Source of the DNA: a virus
Lineage: Duplodnaviria > Caudoviricetes
Reading direction: 5' to 3' (one strand)
IMG/VR virus record: IMGVR_UViG_3300035698_013504
Location: 136,904 to 200,903 of that record
Length of the DNA stretch: 64,000 bases
Of this stretch, positions 5,221-47,025 are shown piece by piece. The notes beneath the pieces are model-generated. The model was not told the origin of the DNA, did not search any database, and worked only from the letters and a program-made list of their open reading frames with translations. The first letter of the stretch is position 1. Each line of letters begins with the position of its first letter. The position numbers and the translations under genes were made by a program.

Positions 5221-5710
5221 CTTCTTTGAAGGGTTCGCCGATAAAGCAGCCCGCAGCGAGATTGACAGGCTAGACGTTTATGGCGTCAAGACCGTGCGCA
5301 GGATGCTTAAAGCCATGGGGGCAACTGATGCAGAACGTAAGGCCATCGAGTACAATTTAGGACCTGAGTACGCGATAGCTGACTTCTGTGAGCAGATGGC
5401 TTTCCCCGTTCTTCTCATACCTTGTAAGGTTGAGCCTTTTCCGTTCCACAGGCTTGCCACCGCGTTCATTAAGACACCCGTGTATGACAGTCTTAGTGAC
5501 GTTATCAGTTCCCTAGGCAGCGCTACGCGTGTCGGCATTGTCTTCTCCGCGTGGAGGAAACACTGGGTGGCACACACGTACTGGGAGGTTGTAGAAGTCC
5601 CCGGACACTCTCAGATGCGACGATGCGGTAAGACCGAGGGTATAGGTATGGTAGTTGAACTTGTTGACGGGTTCGCAAAAGCCGTCAGAACAGCGTGGAG
5701 TTACGAATGA
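5213..5710 (+). CDS. Hypothetical protein
   Basis: ORF coupled to its neighbours by overlaps. Confidence 0.7.
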   Translation: MANFFEGFADKAARSEIDRLDVYGVKTVRRMLKAMGATDAERKAIEYNLGPEYAIADFCEQMAFPVLLIPCKVEPFPFHRLATAFIKTPVYDSLSDVISSLGSATRVGIVFSAWRKHWVAHTYWEVVEVPGHSQMRRCGKTEGIGMVVELVDGFAKAVRTAWSYE

Positions 5711-40847: not shown

Positions 40848-40876
40848 TTGACAATCAGCAACCACCATGCTAAGAT
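40848..40876 (+). promoter_or_regulatory. Sigma70-type promoter of the RNA island
   Basis: TTGACA-N17-TAAGAT with extended TG. Confidence 0.75.
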
Positions 40877-40948: not shown

Positions 40949-40992
40949 CTTCAGACTGGAGGTACTTCCTATTAAGAAATATCCCTCCCGTC
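40949..40992 (+). ncRNA. CUUCAG-N8-UACUUC stem module, copy 1 (short, Y-RNA-like)
   Basis: cttcag actggagg tacttc ...aaat atccctcccgtc; N8 pairs with the downstream segment. Confidence 0.55.
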
Positions 40993-41056
40993 GACTATTG
41001 CCGCCGAATTTCTTACTTGAGCCGCAGGCTAGGCTCACCACTACCGACTACTTCAC

Positions 41057-41428
41057 GGGGGTGAAAGGTATCGACAGGACGACTGAAGTATAGACGGCGT
41101 GCCGGAGTTGACCGAATGGCTCCGTTATCAAATCGGTTACACTTAAATTAAGTGACGAAGTTCCCATGCTCGCCGCTGCATAGCGGCCTCGGCCCAAGCG
41201 AGATTGCCTTGGTAGCTTGACGCTGAGACCATACAAAGGTTGACTGCTGGCAAGACAGCGGACATCTCCGGAAAGACGGGGTGCGGGATGGTCATACCCG
41301 CATACAACTCTGACCAAGGCTGCCTGGATGAGCCTGGTGACGTTTGGCCGAATCGCCTGGCTACGCACGTAGATGTTTATATCGAGGACGTAACTGGACC
41401 GGATTTTCAATGATCCGCACCTCCACCA
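41057..41428 (+). ncRNA. ssrA: tmRNA
   Basis: 5' GGGGGTGAAAGGTATCGAC; 3' CACCTCCACCA; 7-bp acceptor stem with G3-U; tag ORF 41154-41183 DEVPMLAAA*; 372 nt. Confidence 0.93.
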
Positions 41429-41459
41429 CTTTAACACTCAGCACAAAGGAGACCGGCTA

Positions 41460-42074
41460 GTGCCCAGAGACACGTTGTTCTACTACATCAGAAAAGCTGT
41501 GCTCATTCCGCGCGGCGTGCCGGAAGACGTTGCCGACAGGATGCGCAAGTACAAAGGCCGACCCAAGGGCGTGTTGGCCGCAACCACTGACGATCAGGGG
41601 AACCTGACCTTCGGCTTTTCGTTCTGCCACACGTCGCCCATATACCGCTCCCGGGACGCGGACCAGAGCGACCCGGATTTGGCCGCCGAGCTGGACTGTA
41701 TGCGCGGCGACTCGTTCAACAAAGTCATCGGGCGCAATATCGCCCTCGCGCGCGCAGAAAAGTACCGCGATGCCGGGCTGCAGTACATCGATAATCACTG
41801 GCACCTTGTCCGCGGAGAAAAGAAACTCGCCGTTCCGGAGGCGGTGCTAAAGGCGCTTCCGCGTTTCATCGCCCGCTCCCAGCGTTTCTTCTCTGATAAG
41901 AAGACGGACACCCGGTGGGTTAGCGGCCTACGTGTCGAAATCGACGCGGCCGTCGCCGCGACGGAGGCCTATCACGCAGCAAACACGAAGGCGCCGGAAG
42001 AAGATTCGGACGGAGGCACCGCAGACATCGGGAAAGTTGTTAGTGACGCCGCGGCTGTGGCCAAACGCGAGTAA
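41460..42074 (+). CDS. Hypothetical phage protein
   Basis: RBS AAGGAG; GFSFCH...DSFNKVIGRNIALARA. Confidence 0.7.
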   Translation: MPRDTLFYYIRKAVLIPRGVPEDVADRMRKYKGRPKGVLAATTDDQGNLTFGFSFCHTSPIYRSRDADQSDPDLAAELDCMRGDSFNKVIGRNIALARAEKYRDAGLQYIDNHWHLVRGEKKLAVPEAVLKALPRFIARSQRFFSDKKTDTRWVSGLRVEIDAAVAATEAYHAANTKAPEEDSDGGTADIGKVVSDAAAVAKRE

Positions 42075-42095
42075 TACACAACACTTCAGGGTGTA

Positions 42096-42215
42096 CTTCA
42101 GGTAAGGGATACTTCAATCAACTCTGCAGGTTACCGGTTCGAGTCCGGTTGCGTACCTTCGGGGCGCATAGCTCAATCGGTAGAGCGGCAGATCCAAAAG
42201 ACCCTCACCGCTTTT
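42096..42215 (+). ncRNA. YrlA-like RNA with circularly permuted tRNA domain (module copy 2)
   Basis: Order: module 5' strand, anticodon-stem 3' strand TCTGC, variable loop, T arm ACCGG-TTCGAGT-CCGGT, acceptor stem closed by cUUCGg, D arm GCTC...GAGC, GCAGA, module 3' strand. Confidence 0.85.
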
Positions 42216-42240
42216 CGTCACCCTTTTCATTACAAGTTAG

Positions 42241-42384
42241 CATGGCGGCGGTGTGGAAGGACACACCCCATGACAGATGGACGCTGCGGAATAACAGACG
42301 GCAGGCAGCACGTGCCCTAATAAGGTACGGGCGGTCACGGCCGAATACGTGGCACTAGTCGGTTTCGAGTCCGGCACGCCGTGT
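42241..42384 (+). ncRNA. tRNA-like RNA with expanded central domain
   Basis: 7-bp acceptor CATGGCG/CGCCGTG, 6-bp D-like stem, T-like arm with 8-nt loop; four hairpins in place of the anticodon/variable arms. Confidence 0.7.
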
Positions 42385-42427
42385 GTTTTGTCTCTACTGA
42401 TCTTTACGCTTGTTGCCTTAACTTGAC

Positions 42428-42568
42428 GGGGAGTTACTGGATCAGTGTCCGGACACAATTCGGTTTTGAGCCTACGTACGTGGGTGATGCCGTGGAATGC
42501 TTACGCTGTACAGAAGACACTGAGCTCAAAGCGATGCATTTCGGCCAGTCGATACGCTCTCCCCACCA
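42428..42568 (+). ncRNA. CCA-ended structured RNA with acceptor-like stem
   Basis: GGGGAG pairs with CTCCCC followed by A-CCA; nested stems ACTGG/CCAGT and CAGTGTC/GACACTG. Confidence 0.65.
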
Positions 42569-42587
42569 TTTTAGATAGGAGACCCAG

Positions 42588-42893
42588 ATGTCCGAAGTTC
42601 CAGGAAACATTCCCGCACCGGAGGAGCCCGCCTCGCAGGTCTTGGCGCAACGTCGTGCCATAGATGAAGTCCAGGAGGAGGTCCACGTGGATCTATGCGA
42701 GTTACGCAGGCGTCTCGGCCAGGTGCTGCGTGACGAAGGTAAGGAGCTGGTTCCTGACGCTGCGACCGCTGTCGCTGATGCGGTTAAGGAGGAGCAGCTT
42801 GTGCCTCTTGCTAACCACCTACGAGACATGAAGCATAAGTCGGAATCGTTCCGCAATTCCATCCGTAACCTACTCGAGCGCCTTGAGCTGTAA
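42588..42893 (+). CDS. Hypothetical coiled-coil protein
   Basis: RBS AGGAG. Confidence 0.7.
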   Translation: MSEVPGNIPAPEEPASQVLAQRRAIDEVQEEVHVDLCELRRRLGQVLRDEGKELVPDAATAVADAVKEEQLVPLANHLRDMKHKSESFRNSIRNLLERLEL

Positions 42894-42919
42894 CCACAGC
42901 CAGGCATAGGAGAAAGAAG

Positions 42920-43345
42920 ATGGGCTCTACACCAAGCAATAAAGACGGCGGATGTTCTCTCTTACATGACCTTTGGAGAAGGTCTGTAGGTATGGAACCC
43001 AGACCGTCTACGGTGTTGATGCCCGATCTTGCATCTCTGAGGCAGACCGAGTGGTCTGATACGTTCGAGCAGTACATGCGCAACAGACTCGTCTTCGGGG
43101 CCGTCAGGTACGGCCTGGTTGGCGACAAGGGCAAACCCCGGTACGACCGGATCAAGTCGATACGCCAGAGACTTGACGCGTACGAAGAAACGGGGAATGA
43201 TGAACATCTGGTAGACGTCGCGAATATGGCCCAGCTCGAGTTTATCGAGGGGATTCATCCCAACAAGCATTTCGCGTCTATCGATGACGGTGTTCACACA
43301 CCAGTTTGCTCAGGTACTCTTCAGGCACGGGTTACTTCCCTTTAG
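42920..43345 (+). CDS. Conserved phage protein, possible nucleotide pyrophosphohydrolase-like
   Basis: MRNRLVFGAVRYG...EHLVDVAN; the last codons overlap the 5' end of an RNA module. Confidence 0.6.
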   Translation: MGSTPSNKDGGCSLLHDLWRRSVGMEPRPSTVLMPDLASLRQTEWSDTFEQYMRNRLVFGAVRYGLVGDKGKPRYDRIKSIRQRLDAYEETGNDEHLVDVANMAQLEFIEGIHPNKHFASIDDGVHTPVCSGTLQARVTSL

Positions 43346-43438
43346 GAGGGCGAGGTCATGGGTTCGAATCCCATTACCCGACTAATACTCGGGTATAGCT
43401 CAGAGGCAGAGCGCGCTTGTAAACCTGTACCGCTTTTT
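43319..43438 (+). ncRNA. YrlA-like RNA with circularly permuted tRNA domain (module copy 3)
   Basis: GGGCG/CGCTT anticodon stem, AGGTC variable loop, T arm ATGGG-TTCGAAT-CCCAT, perfect 7-bp acceptor TACCCGA/TCGGGTA closed by a loop, D arm GCTC...GAGC. Confidence 0.88.
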
Positions 43439-43480
43439 GGTGCCGAGCATTTTCTTTTGAAGCGGCGGCGGACGTCAGTC

Positions 43481-43579
43481 CAGCGTATGGTGTAACGGTT
43501 AACATTCTGTCGAAACAGTTACTCTCTGACGAGATTGGCTAAAGTAGGCGGGCTACGGGTTCGAATCCCGTTGCGTAGC
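43481..43579 (+). ncRNA. tRNA-like RNA lacking a canonical anticodon arm
   Basis: Acceptor CAGCGTA/TGCGTAG, D arm GTGT-AACGGTTA-ACAT, T arm ACGGG-TTCGAAT-CCCGT; 49 nt with short hairpins between D and T arms. Confidence 0.7.
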
Positions 43580-43609
43580 TGCTTCACATTTGATGGGACG
43601 ATGGTATAC

Positions 43610-43710: not shown

Positions 43711-44052
43711 TGTCCTTTAGCGGGGATGGACGTCTAACGTCGCTGGCCAAGCGGCTGTAGACGCTAATCAAATAGGTCTCGCCACCCGGGCGAGTAGGGA
43801 TGTAGCTACCGAAAGCGCGCACCTTGATCTTTGGATATAGGGTGCAATCGATTAGTAGGTGTACGCCATCTTTCTATCATAGGTTCTTAACATGCTGCGG
43901 TACCACAGCTATGCCTGGATCACCGGTACGGACTTCGGTCCGGGGCAGTTCATCTTATTACGTTTGCCGCTGGGGTTCCCTCGTTAAAGTGGCCCGCTGC
44001 GGCGCCGCCCCCTCGGCGCCGTTTCGAAGGGCCTCAGCGGCTCTACAGGACA
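43711..44052 (+). ncRNA. Unknown ~340-nt multidomain structured RNA
   Basis: Closing stem TGTCCTTTAG/CTACAGGACA; nested GATGG/CCATC, CTAATC/GATTAG, CGTCTA/TAGACG, GCACCTT/AGGGTGC, CGGAC-TTCG-GTCCG, CCGCTGGGG/CCTCAGCGG. Confidence 0.65.
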
Positions 44053-44125: not shown

Positions 44126-44195
44126 TGTCAGTCACCTCTCCCATTGTTGGCAGCCCTCTACGGAGCTGCTCTTGAAAGAACAGGGGGAACACACG

Positions 44196-46022
44196 ATGGC
44201 ACGATCGTTCCGCCGTATCTTGCGCGACGGCGCGCGAAAGAACGCGTTACCTTCCAACCGCCCCGATGCCACGGTTAACCGAGCTGGCGGCGTCTCCTTC
44301 GAGATCGCCGACCCGGCTACCAAGCTCATCACCATGACTGGTGGGGCGTTCTTTGGTGAGCCGAGGTTCTATTCAGGTTCCGACTGTGTACCCGTCCGGT
44401 CGTTCGGCGGGGCGTTCGCACCCTTGCAGGCACGTCTGGAGATCGCCAGGGACAAGTCTGTATCGTTCGCACGCTGCGAGGAGCTCGATGACACGGCACA
44501 GGAGATCATCGCAACGATCTTGGCTGTGCTCGATGGCGACACCCCAGAAGATGCGTTGGTTATCGCGGCGTGGCTGCGTAACGACGCAAACATCAGGCTC
44601 ACCCCCCAGGTGATCCTCACGCTTGCCGCCAATCACGAGAATGGCAAACCCTTCGTGCGCAAGTATGCGCCGAAGATCATGCTACGTCCGGATGAGGCGA
44701 AGACGAACCTCCTGTTGCACCGGTTCTTCTTTGGCTCGCGTAACCTGCCGAATAGCCTCAACAAAGCCATCGGTGACGGAGTCGCTCGCTTTGGCGAGTG
44801 GGGACTCATCAAGTATGATACGCCCTCCTTCCCCCGCTGGAAGGATGTGCTTCGTTGGATCAAGCGCCGCAACGGGTGGCCCCTCTCAAGAGGGCTGGCC
44901 CGCTACTTCACCCATGGTGAGGTGGATCGTGACGCTACTCCGATCGCCTATGCTCGCAGCCTCTTGGCTCAGAAGACTACCTTCGACACCGAGACTCGCG
45001 AGTTGATCACGGCCAGCCGTGCGACCTGGGAAGTCGTGATGTCTCAGTTCGGCCCACAGGACAAGACACGGGCCTGGGAGTACCTGGTTTTCGAGAACCT
45101 GTTGGGCTATATGGCCACGATGCGCAACCTGCGTAACATGGCTCAGGCCAACGTCAGCTCCCTGTGCGTCGACGCCGTTTGCAGAAAGCTTGTCAACCCC
45201 GAGGAAGTGGCAACAAGTAGGCAACTGCCTTATCGCTTCCTTGCCGCAAACAATGCCCTCTGGGGTAGCCCCGATCGGTTTGGTGGCAACAGCCGCGATA
45301 ACCGCATGGTGTCCCAGTGGCGCGTTAACCCGGTTGTTGGCGGGGGAGGCCTCTCCGGCTTCCGCGGGCTGAGTAAGTTCACAGATGCTCTCGATGAAGC
45401 CGCGGACATGTCCGTGAAGAACGTGCCTGTGTTGCCGGGCCAGACGGCCGTCCTTGTGGACGAGTCCAGCTCTATGCGTCAGCCGATCTCGGAGAAGTCG
45501 CAGATGCTAGTCTGTGACGCGTCGAATATGCTGGCGGGTATTATCGGGCGTGTCTCGGCCGATACGATCCTGTTGCCGTTCGGTGGTACCGTCGAGCATG
45601 TCCCCTGTCGTCATAGGGATACGGTGATCAGCATCGCAGAGAGGTGCGCGGCGGCCAATGTCGGCCACTCGACGAATACGTACCTCGGTATCCAGTACCT
45701 GATCGACAACGACATCGCGCCCGACCGGATTGTCATTCTGTCGGATGCACAAGCGTGGAACAGCTACAGCCGATCGTCGGGCTCGTTGCCTGACACGGTA
45801 CAGCAATACCGCCGCGGTTCGGCGATTGCAAAGGACACATGGATTCACAGTGTTCACGTCAACGGTTACGGCGACGACCCTATCCCCCCCGGTCCCCGTG
45901 TTAACCTCGTTTCTGGGTGGACGGACAAGATCGTGGACTCCATGCTTCACTGCGAAGGTGGCGTTGAGGGAGAAGAAGCGCTGGCGACCATCGACTACAT
46001 CAGAGCCAGGTGGTGTAATTAG
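44196..46022 (+). CDS. Ro60/TROVE-domain RNA-binding protein with vWA domain
   Basis: NRAGGVSF, FFGEPRFY, RNDANIRLTP, KYD, TWE, YMATMRNLRNM, LPYRF, vWA VDESSSM and LSDAQ. Confidence 0.92.
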   Translation: MARSFRRILRDGARKNALPSNRPDATVNRAGGVSFEIADPATKLITMTGGAFFGEPRFYSGSDCVPVRSFGGAFAPLQARLEIARDKSVSFARCEELDDTAQEIIATILAVLDGDTPEDALVIAAWLRNDANIRLTPQVILTLAANHENGKPFVRKYAPKIMLRPDEAKTNLLLHRFFFGSRNLPNSLNKAIGDGVARFGEWGLIKYDTPSFPRWKDVLRWIKRRNGWPLSRGLARYFTHGEVDRDATPIAYARSLLAQKTTFDTETRELITASRATWEVVMSQFGPQDKTRAWEYLVFENLLGYMATMRNLRNMAQANVSSLCVDAVCRKLVNPEEVATSRQLPYRFLAANNALWGSPDRFGGNSRDNRMVSQWRVNPVVGGGGLSGFRGLSKFTDALDEAADMSVKNVPVLPGQTAVLVDESSSMRQPISEKSQMLVCDASNMLAGIIGRVSADTILLPFGGTVEHVPCRHRDTVISIAERCAAANVGHSTNTYLGIQYLIDNDIAPDRIVILSDAQAWNSYSRSSGSLPDTVQQYRRGSAIAKDTWIHSVHVNGYGDDPIPPGPRVNLVSGWTDKIVDSMLHCEGGVEGEEALATIDYIRARWCN

Positions 46023-46052
46023 ATGTAGCACCACCACAAACAAATACGCAAG

Positions 46053-46089
46053 GAGCTGGTCACACGTTGTGACCAGCTCTTGTTCTTTA
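46053..46089 (+). terminator. Intrinsic terminator after TROVE
   Basis: 12-bp GAGCTGGTCACA/TGTGACCAGCTC stem followed by TTGTTCTTT. Confidence 0.8.
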
Positions 46090-46110
46090 GTCTCGCCTCA
46101 GGAGGGTACG

Positions 46111-47025
46111 ATGACCATCGTGACTCATGGTGGTACGGCCCACGCCGATGAGGTCATGTCGATTGCGCTGCTCGTATTGCGTGATGAGCATGTCCGCGCG
46201 GCGTACCGAAGACAGGCCCTCGATATCAAACGTGTCGCAAACTTCATGGATGACACGATTGCCCCGGGCGACTGGGTGTTGGATGTCGGGCTGATACATG
46301 ATCCCGAACGTTTGCGATTTGACCATCACCAGCAAAGGCCGCCCGTTGATAGCACGTTCAGTTTGCTCGCTAAGCATTTCGGGCTACATGAGACGCTGTC
46401 AACATGCACCTCGTGGTACAACCAGATCGTGTGCGTAGACGTACACGGCCCTATAAAGTACATGGAGAGCCTTGGGTTCTCAGACCCTACGATGGATACA
46501 TTCACCAGTGTGTTCAGCACCAGCATCCTTCAATGGTTTGTCACTCAGTTTGAGCGCCTGCCCATTGTTGGTATTGACTTGGCCGTACCTTGGCTAACCG
46601 AGCGTATCTCTGAGGCCCAGTCGATACGACTACGAGTTGATGAGCTGCTGGACACGGCGTCGGTATTTGGTAACGTAGTTGTCTTCCCGGATGCCGCGAC
46701 ACCTTTCGGCACAGGTTTGGCTATTCGCGAGCTTGTCTCGAGAAGTGATGTCTTTCTTGACATCGCCGTATCTATTCTCCCTGACAGTCGTGACAAAGGC
46801 ATGTGGTCGCTTATGCGGCTAGACGACGACGCAAGGGTAGACATGTTACGCATCGAAGAATTACCCTTTGTGGAGTTCGTACACGCCAACGGCTTTCTTG
46901 CCAAGGTGCGGTGCTCACTTCCTGAGGCTATTCAGCTTGCACAACAAACCATAAGGGAGGACGATGAGGATGTCTGGGAACGAAAGCACGACCGATGGCT
47001 TCAAGGAAAGCCTGGAAGATCTTAA
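46111..47025 (+). CDS. MYG1-family (UPF0160) nuclease/hydrolase
   Basis: VTHGGTAHADE, VLDVG...DP...FDHHQ, FVHANGF. Confidence 0.8.
   Translation: MTIVTHGGTAHADEVMSIALLVLRDEHVRAAYRRQALDIKRVANFMDDTIAPGDWVLDVGLIHDPERLRFDHHQQRPPVDSTFSLLAKHFGLHETLSTCTSWYNQIVCVDVHGPIKYMESLGFSDPTMDTFTSVFSTSILQWFVTQFERLPIVGIDLAVPWLTERISEAQSIRLRVDELLDTASVFGNVVVFPDAATPFGTGLAIRELVSRSDVFLDIAVSILPDSRDKGMWSLMRLDDDARVDMLRIEELPFVEFVHANGFLAKVRCSLPEAIQLAQQTIREDDEDVWERKHDRWLQGKPGRS

What the first reader, a model, noticed from the sequence alone, without database searches (positions are those of the whole stretch)
42241..42384. tRNA mimic with four hairpins in place of the anticodon and variable arms
Seen: 7-bp acceptor, 6-bp D-like stem and T-like arm (8-nt loop TTTCGAGT) frame ~90 nt forming CCAT/ATGG, GCTGC/GCAGC, CGTGCC/GGTACG and GTCACG/CGTGGC hairpins. 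There is no 7-nt anticodon loop and no encoded CCA. Inference: a new class of tRNA-shaped ncRNA, e.g. a decoy for anticodon nucleases or for T-box/uncharged-tRNA sensors. An intron-containing tRNA is less likely.
Basis: partly seen in the sequence, partly recalled or inferred. Interest (0 to 1): 0.75.

Follow-up and report, generated by a model that had tools for sequence, protein, structure and literature searches.

The report
Orphan tRNA-shaped RNA beside phage Ro60
A 145-base stretch of a 200-kb salt-lake phage folds into a tRNA-like shape that cannot decode; it sits in a cluster of small RNA genes in front of the phage's Ro60 gene, where related phages carry a real tRNA, and is most likely a tRNA-derived processing and mimic RNA, but with no relatives this cannot be proven.

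Summary
The seven helices are real. The minimum-energy fold of 42241-42385 (+) reproduces them (-59.5 kcal/mol; z -2.24 on the + strand, +0.42 on the - strand). One claim is wrong: the hairpin at 42311-42329 has a 7-nt anticodon-like loop, CUAAUAA.

The window is the end of a complete 200.9-kb jumbo phage. The element (E) lies in a 3.3-kb RNA island that holds a tmRNA, five Y-RNA modules and two YrlA-like permuted tRNA domains, upstream of a Ro60/TROVE gene. E starts just after the U-rich tail of the first YrlA-like Y RNA. In 9 of 12 related phage loci that slot holds a genuine initiator-like tRNA-Met(CAU), whose anticodon loop differs from E's by one base.

E is not a tRNA by Rfam or ARAGORN, and no credible intron removal restores one. 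It lacks the CUUCAG/UACUUC Ro-docking motif of all the other Y modules. It has no detectable homologue, so covariation cannot be tested.

Best reading (about 0.45): a tRNA-derived, non-decoding module that directs RNase P/Z processing of the polycistronic Y-RNA transcript and persists as a tRNA mimic. This scan has already found tRNA-order Y RNAs beside phage Ro60 on other DNA. E shares their ground plan but not their Ro motif.

The parts
42241..42247 (+). Acceptor-like stem, 5' strand (CAUGGCG)
   Evidence: Pairs with 42377-42383; pair probability 0.92-0.94.
42250..42267 (+). D-like hairpin: 6-bp stem, 6-nt loop GAAGGA containing GG
   Evidence: Pair probability 0.98-1.0. The stem is longer and the loop shorter than in a normal D arm.
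42268..42280 (+). Hairpin H2: CCAU/AUGG with loop GACAG
   Evidence: Pair probability 0.98-1.0.
42283..42309 (+). Hairpin H3: GCUGC/GCAGC with a 17-nt loop; the weakest helix
   Evidence: Pair probability only 0.26; an alternative register exists through the GCAG GCAGC repeat.
42311..42329 (+). Hairpin H4: 6-bp stem with the 7-nt anticodon-like loop CUAAUAA (42317-42323)
   Evidence: Pair probability 0.87-0.97. The loop is one base from the CUCAUAA of the relatives' tRNA-Met and identical to the loop of the tRNA-order Y RNA in L049.
42334..42353 (+). Hairpin H5: GUCACG/CGUGGC with loop GCCGAAUA; sits where a long variable arm would
   Evidence: Pair probability 0.78-0.79.
42358..42375 (+). T-like arm: GUCGG/CCGGC with the 8-nt loop UUUCGAGU
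   Evidence: Pair probability 0.73-0.85. It equals the T arm of the neighbouring YrlA-like RNA (CGGUUCGAGUCCGG) plus one extra U.
42377..42383 (+). Acceptor-like stem, 3' strand (CGCCGUG), then U42384; no CCA
42084..42240 (+). Upstream neighbour Y1: a YrlA-like Y RNA (CUUCAG/UACUUC module plus a permuted tRNA domain) whose U-rich tail ends at E's first base
   Evidence: Rfam YrlA 34.8 bits, E 3.6e-05, below the gathering score of 69; module motif.
44172..46022 (+). Ro60/TROVE + vWA gene that defines the island
   Evidence: Pfam TROVE 2.7e-20; vWA_Ro60 1.1e-05, 25.9 bits against a cut-off of 27.7. 97 homologues, best 49% identity.
40848..40876 (+). Only strong sigma-70-like promoter match ahead of the island (TTGACA-17-TAAGAT)
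   Evidence: No + strand terminator-like site was found between it and the Ro60 gene.

Best explanation
E (42241-42384, + strand) is a real, non-decoding RNA module built on a tRNA ground plan: acceptor stem, D-like hairpin with GG in its loop, two inserted hairpins, an anticodon-like hairpin with loop CUAAUAA, a long extra arm, and a T-like arm. It belongs to the polycistronic Ro60/Y-RNA operon of a jumbo phage. It most likely descends from, or replaces, the tRNA that related phages place directly after a Y RNA.

Proposed mechanism (inferred, not shown). The host's RNase P recognises the acceptor/T-arm stack and the D/T-loop elbow and cuts between G42240 and C42241. That cut creates both the 3' end of the upstream Y RNA and the 5' end of E. 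A 3' tRNA-processing enzyme such as RNase Z trims after U42384. The released ~145-nt RNA persists as a tRNA mimic that cannot be used for decoding. It does not carry the Ro60-docking motif of its neighbours.
For: Shown.
- The fold is the MFE, is strand-specific and is better than shuffles. All 39 pairs are standard or G-U with no mismatches, which does not look like a decaying pseudogene.
- E lies in a 513-nt gap between ORFs. The overlapping short ORFs have no PHROG family.
- The island holds a tmRNA (76.7 bits), two YrlA-like hits and five CUUCAG-N8-UACUUC modules, upstream of Ro60.
- One promoter-like site and no + strand terminator-like site were found across the island, so the RNAs would have to be cut out of a longer transcript.
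- In Ro60 relatives (42-49% identity) the order tmRNA - Y RNA(s) - tRNA-Met(CAU) - terminator - Ro60 recurs. In 9 of 12 distinct loci the tRNA begins 6-12 nt after the conserved Y-RNA tail.
- In the window each of three Y RNAs is followed at once by an RNA with a tRNA-like end: Y0 by the tmRNA, Y1 by E, and Y2 by element I (Rfam tRNA 24.2 bits).
- E's 7-nt loop is one base from the relatives' CUCAUAA.

From the literature. M. smegmatis YrlA and YrlB are processed from a single precursor, YrlA is cut by RNase P and receives CCA, and YrlB has a possible T arm (PMC4201824).
Against: - There is no homologue anywhere, so there is no covariation: blastn against 80 loci and the phage's own genome, a covariance model of E over about 1 Mb of Ro60-phage loci, and exact-pattern scans.
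- A covariance model of the relatives' tRNA-Met matches only E's T arm, at 3 bits, and Rfam tRNA gives nothing. Descent from a tRNA is therefore not demonstrated.
- The T loop has 8 nt, an unpaired A interrupts the acceptor/T stack, and position +1 is C with no RCCA. All of these would weaken RNase P recognition.
- Four extra hairpins are more than a processing handle needs.
- The acceptor plus T-like pattern alone is expected 0.6 times per window by chance.
Confidence: 0.45

Rival explanations
1. E is itself a Ro60-bound Y RNA in 'tRNA order': a tRNA body with the protein-docking part inserted between the D arm and the anticodon-like arm. Its Ro-binding site would be a divergent one.
For: It has the same ground plan as the tRNA-order Y RNAs next to Ro60 in other phages: L052 783-905, L049, L023, L043 and L056 keep a CUNAUAA-type hairpin, while L073, L081 and L070 do not. 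It lies 1.8 kb upstream of Ro60. The neighbouring element I is of this kind. The H5 loop GCCGAAUAC resembles the YrlA GNCGAA...AUGC stretch.
Against: All five Y modules of this phage carry CUUCAG and UACUUC with 0-1 mismatch. E's best match to GUUACUUC has 3 mismatches of 8, no better than the tmRNA. The GNCGAA-like stretch lies in a hairpin loop, not on a helix strand.
Confidence: 0.2
2. E has no function of its own. It is a chance fold, or a relic of a tRNA or Y-RNA duplication, inside an intercistronic spacer.
For: It is an orphan sequence. The pattern is expected 0.6 times per window. The z-score is only -2.2. One helix has a pair probability of 0.26. The T loop is degenerate. Three metagenomes carry identical copies, so nothing can be said about selection.
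Against: It is placed on the + strand of the RNA island, exactly where the Y tail ends (about 0.01 expected). All seven helices are free of mismatches. The loop CUAAUA[AC] occurs 7 times in 200 kb, twice in the island, both times as a 7-nt hairpin loop.
Confidence: 0.25
3. E is a tRNA gene interrupted by an intron, and splicing restores a decoding tRNA.
For: Deleting 42280-42328 gives an ARAGORN 'tRNA-Cys(ACA)' of 95 nt with a long variable arm. None of 40 random genome segments gave any call.
Against: The join falls in the 3' strand of the anticodon stem, not at position 37/38. Position 33 would be G, and the T loop keeps 8 nt. 4 of 60 interior-shuffled controls also give calls. ARAGORN's intron mode finds nothing. 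The 49 nt are too short for a group I intron, and no such Rfam match appears.
Confidence: 0.03
4. E is a decoy or sponge for host tRNA-targeting defences or tRNA-binding enzymes.
For: It has a tRNA-like elbow and acceptor, an anticodon-like loop of the NAU type, and sits in a phage RNA-quality-control island. This is inference only.
Against: No tool result bears on it. The phage encodes no RtcB or CCA-adding enzyme that would point to a tRNA-repair setting.
Confidence: 0.1

Closest known systems
YrlA-type bacterial and phage Y RNAs with Ro60/Rsr (Rfam RF02553; Chen et al. 2014, PMC4201824)
   Same: A tRNA-mimicking, non-decoding RNA encoded within a few kb upstream of Ro60 and co-transcribed with other Y RNAs. 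The T arm is nearly identical to that of the adjacent YrlA-like RNA.
   Different: E has native tRNA order (free acceptor ends), not the permuted order. It has no Ro-binding helix or motif and no RF02553 match.
M. smegmatis YrlB (second Rsr-bound RNA with a possible T arm, processed with YrlA from one precursor; PMC4201824)
   Same: A second structured RNA directly after a YrlA-type RNA that carries a T-arm-like hairpin; the precursor is cut by RNase P.
   Different: YrlB was shown to bind Rsr. For E, binding is untested and the local Ro motif is absent.
'tRNA-order' Y RNAs beside phage Ro60
   Same: Acceptor, D hairpin, an insert after the D arm, a T arm, and in some members an NAU-type anticodon-like hairpin (CUAAUAA in L049 as in E).
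   Different: These members have canonical D and T arms and the helix + (G)UUACUUC motif. E has neither, and it adds a long extra arm.
Initiator-like tRNA-Met(CAU) of related Ro60 phages (e.g. L007 3631-3705)
   Same: It occupies the same slot directly after a Y-RNA tail, and its anticodon loop CUCAUAA differs from E's CUAAUAA by one base.
   Different: It is a canonical 74-79-nt cloverleaf with encoded CCA, followed by a terminator. A covariance model built from these tRNAs does not recover E.
tRNA-like processing modules such as mascRNA at the MALAT1 3' end, and the tRNA punctuation of mitochondrial transcripts (my own knowledge)
   Same: A non-decoding tRNA-shaped element whose cleavage by RNase P/Z defines the end of the upstream non-coding RNA.
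   Different: Those are eukaryotic systems, with no homology to E. Cleavage of E is not shown.

Membership tests
Canonical tRNA (RF00005) | Covariance-model score at or above gathering (29 bits), or an ARAGORN call | tested here: not met
   No Rfam match at E<=10 on 42236-42400. ARAGORN finds none in the window, in the genome or on E.
Canonical tRNA (RF00005) | 7-bp acceptor; 3-4-bp D stem; 5-bp anticodon stem with a 7-nt loop at positions 27-43; 5-bp T stem with a 7-nt loop abutting the acceptor | tested here: not met
   The acceptor is met. The D stem has 6 bp, the T loop has 8 nt, and an unpaired A lies between T stem and acceptor. The 7-nt loop hairpin is displaced by about 42 inserted nt.
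Intron-containing tRNA | Removing one segment restores a canonical cloverleaf with the junction in the anticodon loop | tested here: not met
   Of 6150 single deletions, only 3 gave ARAGORN calls, none at position 37/38. The control rate was 4 of 60.
YrlA Y RNA (RF02553) | Permuted tRNA domain (T arm before D arm, acceptor closed by a loop) inside a Ro-binding stem; model score | tested here: not met
   RF02553 hits 42102-42211 and 43350-43417 but not E. E has native order.
Y RNAs of this phage clade | CUUCAG - 7-8-nt helix strand - UACUUC module | tested here: not met
   The motif is present with 0-1 mismatch in Y0-Y4. In E the best match has 3 mismatches of 8.
Y RNAs (any) | Bound by Ro60 | not testable with these tools
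   This needs a pull-down of the phage Ro60.
tRNA-order Y RNAs beside phage Ro60 | tRNA body in native order next to Ro60, with an insert after the D arm | tested here: met
   Architecture; 1.8 kb upstream of Ro60; compare L052 and L049.
tRNA-order Y RNAs beside phage Ro60 | Loop-closed helix followed by (G)UUACUUC in the insert | tested here: not met
tmRNA (RF00023) / tRNA-Sec (RF01852) | Model match | tested here: not met
   No match on E at E<=10. The 6-bp D stem and long extra arm recall tRNA-Sec only in form.
RNase P substrate | Cleavage at the 5' end of the acceptor stem | not testable with these tools
   This needs an in vitro M1 RNA/holoenzyme assay or 5'-end mapping.

The most novel reading that the evidence does not exclude
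E is the founding member of a Ro-motif-less class of phage tRNA mimics. It would be a stable ~145-nt RNA, matured by host tRNA-processing enzymes, with a tRNA elbow, an acceptor end and an NAU-type anticodon-like loop on a seven-way junction. It would act in trans, for example as a decoy or sponge for tRNA-targeting host factors, or as a regulator or substrate of the phage Ro60-MYG1 RNA-decay pair, rather than merely as a cis processing signal.
Probability: 0.2. Interest if true: 0.7.

Novelty: new variant of a known kind. Interest (0 to 1): 0.45.

Why it matters
Bacterial and phage Ro60 proteins work with Y RNAs that mimic tRNA, and why they mimic tRNA is still unknown. This phage packs at least six Y-type RNAs, a tmRNA and two tRNA-shaped RNAs in native order into one operon, yet encodes no decoding tRNA.

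If E is confirmed, it would show that a tRNA slot next to a Y RNA can be kept for its shape after decoding is lost. It would then serve as a handle for the host's tRNA-processing enzymes or as a mimic. That would give a concrete intermediate between tRNA genes and tRNA-like Y RNAs. It would also give a simple substrate (the Y1-E dicistron) for testing how such operons are cut into their parts.

Tried and rejected
- Homologue searches for E all came back empty:
  - blastn (word size 7) against 85 fetched loci and the phage's own 200-kb genome;
  - megablast-level and distant search of GenBank phages with 41000-43600;
  - an exact 23-mer in IMG/VR;
  - a 31-nt pattern in JGI metagenomes;
  - a covariance model of E over 966,610 bases of Ro60-phage loci.
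- A 20-mer of the T arm and acceptor hit two bacterial MAGs, but both lie inside protein-coding sequence, so they are chance matches.
- The upstream 204-aa ORF has no relative among 5.8 billion proteins other than itself, so no closer phage could be reached through it.
- Sequencing runs: no RNA holder is listed. Three salt-lake DNA runs (2017-2019) carry pieces identical to the window with no variant letters. That gives no data on microdiversity, expression or RNA ends.
- The relatives' tRNA-Met covariance model does not recover E.
- PHROGs finds nothing for the short ORFs overlapping E.
- The ESM Atlas look-ups of the island's ORFs were uninformative for E: the 204-aa protein is of unknown viral type, and the 141-aa protein looks like a MazG or dNTP-pyrophosphohydrolase.
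- The phage encodes no CCA-adding enzyme or RtcB.
- A 13-nt complementarity between E 42370-42382 and the tmRNA at 41094-41106 is probably chance. About 0.8 such 13-mers are expected genome-wide, and three were seen.
- The review PMC10870794 is not held.

Full report
**What the window is.** The window is bases 136,904-200,903 of a 200,903-bp virus record with direct terminal repeats, rated complete. Nearly all long ORFs lie on the + strand. ARAGORN finds no tRNA and no tmRNA in the whole genome.

**The observation.** I read 41900-42750 and folded 42241-42385.
- Ensemble pair probabilities are about 0.93 for the 7-bp terminal stem, 0.98-1.0 for the 6-bp D-like stem and CCAU/AUGG, 0.87-0.97 for CGUGCC/GGUACG, 0.78-0.79 for GUCACG/CGUGGC and 0.73-0.85 for the T-like arm. 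GCUGC/GCAGC reaches only 0.26.
- The + strand folds better than shuffles (z -2.24; 6 of 200 as good). The reverse complement does not (z +0.42).
- The T-like loop has 8 nt, one A (42376) separates the T stem from the acceptor strand, and no CCA follows.
The CGUGCC/GGUACG hairpin closes the loop CUAAUAA (42317-42323), which has the C32-U33 ... A37-A38 pattern of an anticodon loop.

**Is it more than chance?** An acceptor stem plus a T-like arm under comparably loose rules turns up 0.6 times per 64-kb window on both strands in 40 Markov shuffles. The shape alone is therefore not significant. What is significant is where it lies.

**Surroundings.** Rfam finds a tmRNA at 41057-41428 (76.7 bits). 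At a permissive threshold it finds two YrlA (Y RNA-like) matches, 42102-42211 (34.8 bits) and 43350-43417 (29 bits), both below the gathering score of 69. The ORF at 44172-46022 is a Ro60 protein (TROVE 2.7e-20, plus a Ro60 vWA match at 25.9 bits, just under its 27.7 cut-off). It is followed by a MYG1-family gene.

A module CUUCAG-N8-UACUUC occurs five times upstream of Ro60, at 40949, 42096, 43319, 43610 and 44074. The same module stands next to Ro60 in related phage contigs, so it marks the Y RNAs of this clade. One promoter-like site (40848) precedes the island, and no + strand terminator-like site follows before Ro60.

The finding (E) starts at 42241, just after the U-rich tail of the first YrlA-like RNA. 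It lies in a 513-nt gap between two ORFs, and the short ORFs that overlap it have no PHROG family. The chance expectation for the acceptor/T pattern on the + strand of the ~1.9 kb of non-coding island is about 0.01.

**Relatives.** The Ro60 protein has 97 homologues, the best at 49% identity. I fetched 5 loci by identity and 80 from IMG/VR with a Ro60 alignment.
- In the loci with 42-49% Ro60 identity, the order tmRNA - Y module(s) - tRNA-Met(CAU) - Ro60 recurs.
- In 9 of 12 distinct loci the tRNA begins 6-12 nt after the conserved Y-RNA tail (...AUUAUYGGUGUCGGCUUUUGAU) and is followed by a hairpin and a U run.
- These tRNAs have an unpaired 1:72 position and the loop CUCAUAA.
- In the window the same tail, adapted to its own stem, ends Y1 and Y2. 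Y1 is followed by E. Y2 is followed by a second tRNA-shaped element, I (Rfam tRNA 24.2 bits at 43481-43579, anticodon arm replaced by 33 nt that include ACAGUUACUC). Y0 is followed by the tmRNA.

E thus occupies a slot that this phage group reserves for an RNA with a tRNA-type end. E's 7-nt loop differs from the relatives' anticodon loop at one position.

**What E is not.**
- *Not a tRNA.* No Rfam family matches 42236-42400 at E<=10. ARAGORN, with or without introns, makes no call.
- *Not an intron-bearing tRNA.* I removed every internal segment of 15-114 nt (6150 variants). Only two equivalent deletions (42280-42328) give a weak 95-nt 'tRNA-Cys(ACA)', and one other gives an off-register call. 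The junction is in a stem, not at position 37/38. Controls that kept E's acceptor and T arm but shuffled the interior gave calls in 4 of 60 cases.
- *Not demonstrably tRNA-derived.* A covariance model of the relatives' tRNA-Met recovers only E's T arm, at 3 bits.
- *Not a Y RNA by this clade's own criterion.* Its best match to GUUACUUC has 3 mismatches of 8, like the tmRNA, whereas Y0-Y4 have 0-1.

**A related ground plan elsewhere.** While scanning the Ro60 loci for long acceptor/T-arm elements I found many tRNA-shaped RNAs in native order next to Ro60. They have canonical acceptor, D and T arms, and their anticodon region carries a loop-closed helix followed by (G)UUACUUC. Examples are L073 5717-5862 (Rfam tRNA 47.8 bits over 146 nt), L081 5761-5885, L070 5582-5711 and L052 783-905.

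Five of them (L023, L043, L049, L052, L056) keep, after that insert, a small hairpin whose loop is CUGAUAA, CUUAUAA, CUAAUAA or CUAAUCC; four of the five loops fit CUNAUAA, that is, an NAU-type anticodon-like arm. E has the same plan: D hairpin, insert, CUAAUAA hairpin, T arm. It differs by lacking the Ro motif, by having non-canonical D and T arms and by carrying an additional long arm.

Notes of this scan show that such 'tRNA-order' Y RNAs were already found beside phage Ro60 on other DNA. I found none described in the papers I could search.

Within the phage, CUAAUA[AC] occurs 7 times in 200 kb. Two of these are in the island, both as 7-nt hairpin loops: E's H4 and the cap of Y2's acceptor-like stem.

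**No comparative test is possible.** E has no homologue by blastn in the loci or its own genome, by its own covariance model over about 1 Mb, or by exact-pattern scans of IMG/VR, JGI metagenomes and GTDB genomes (the two genome hits are coding). Three salt-lake metagenomes from different years hold identical sequence, and no RNA run is listed.

**Interpretation.** The facts that need explaining are these:
- a mismatch-free, strand-specific seven-helix fold;
- a tRNA-like acceptor/T/D frame;
- a position exactly where relatives have a tRNA after a Y RNA;
- an operon without internal terminators;
- the absence of the Ro motif.

The simplest account is a tRNA-derived module that is kept because the host's tRNA-processing enzymes cut there, releasing the Y RNA and E itself. 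There is experimental precedent in M. smegmatis, where YrlA and YrlB come from one precursor and RNase P cuts YrlA (PMC4201824). The cutting itself is inferred, not shown.

The imperfect T loop, the interrupted stack and the missing RCCA all argue for at best a modest substrate. The four extra hairpins suggest a further role that I cannot name. I give this account 0.45. The rivals are a divergent Ro-bound Y RNA at 0.2, a functionless relic or chance fold at 0.25, a trans-acting decoy at 0.1 and an intron-bearing tRNA at 0.03.

**Verdict.** E is best filed as an orphan variant within the tRNA-mimicking RNAs of Ro60 loci, not as a demonstrated new class.

Noticed in passing
window 43458-43592 (tRNA core 43481-43579): A second tRNA-shaped RNA in native order lies right after the second YrlA-like RNA. 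It has canonical D and T arms (Rfam tRNA 24.2 bits), its anticodon arm is replaced by 33 nt that include the hairpin CUGU-CGAA-ACAG followed by UUACUC, and an extra outer stem encloses it. It looks like a tRNA-order Y RNA.
   Followed up: partly
window 41057-41428: A tmRNA is found by Rfam (76.7 bits, full length) but missed by ARAGORN in the window and in the whole genome. I did not determine its tag reading frame.
   Followed up: no
window 42428-42568: A rod-like RNA is closed by GGGGAG/CUCCCC and followed by ACCA, with no T arm. It ends 20 nt before the start codon at 42588. A 7-bp helix CAAGUUA (42231-42237) / UAACUUG (42419-42425) brackets E and its 3' trailer.
   Followed up: no
window 43711-44052: A ~340-nt non-coding stretch between two Y modules matches no Rfam family even at E<=10.
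   Followed up: partly
L005 5294-5367; L007 3631-3705; L008-L011, L014, L018, L020: There is a conserved small operon in Ro60 phages: tmRNA, one or two Y RNAs, then an initiator-like tRNA-Met(CAU) with an unpaired 1:72 position and encoded CCA, then an intrinsic terminator, then Ro60.
   Followed up: partly
L052 783-905; L073 5717-5862; L081 5761-5885; L070 5259-5381 and 5582-5711; L049 ~5460-5540: These are tRNA-order Y RNAs: canonical acceptor, D and T arms with a loop-closed helix plus (G)UUACUUC inserted after the D arm. Some keep an NAU-type anticodon-like hairpin.
   Followed up: partly
L074 7902-8038 and 8046-8174: Two class-II-like tRNAs in a tRNA array just after Ro60 carry inserts of about 48-49 nt at the anticodon loop (ARAGORN: Leu(taa) i(39,49) and Ser(gct) i(38,48)). 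They lack the UACUUC motif, and their nature is unknown.
   Followed up: no
window 42317 and 43382: CUAAUA[AC] occurs 7 times in the 200-kb genome and twice in the 3.3-kb island. Both island copies are 7-nt hairpin loops: E's H4 and the cap of the Y2 acceptor-like stem.
   Followed up: partly
window 42370-42382 versus 41094-41106 and 41513-41524: E's T-stem/acceptor 3' strand is perfectly complementary over 13 nt to a stretch of the tmRNA and over 12 nt to a site in the 204-aa ORF. This is probably chance.
   Followed up: partly
window 45730-47025: A MYG1/UPF0160-family gene (a predicted exonuclease family) directly follows Ro60, and its listed ORF overlaps the end of Ro60. It is a possible nuclease partner of the Ro60/Y-RNA complex.
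   Followed up: no
window 42920-43345: The 141-aa ORF inside the RNA island resembles phage MazG or dNTP-pyrophosphohydrolase-like proteins in the ESM Atlas (feature score 0.95; structure TM 0.46-0.60).
   Followed up: no
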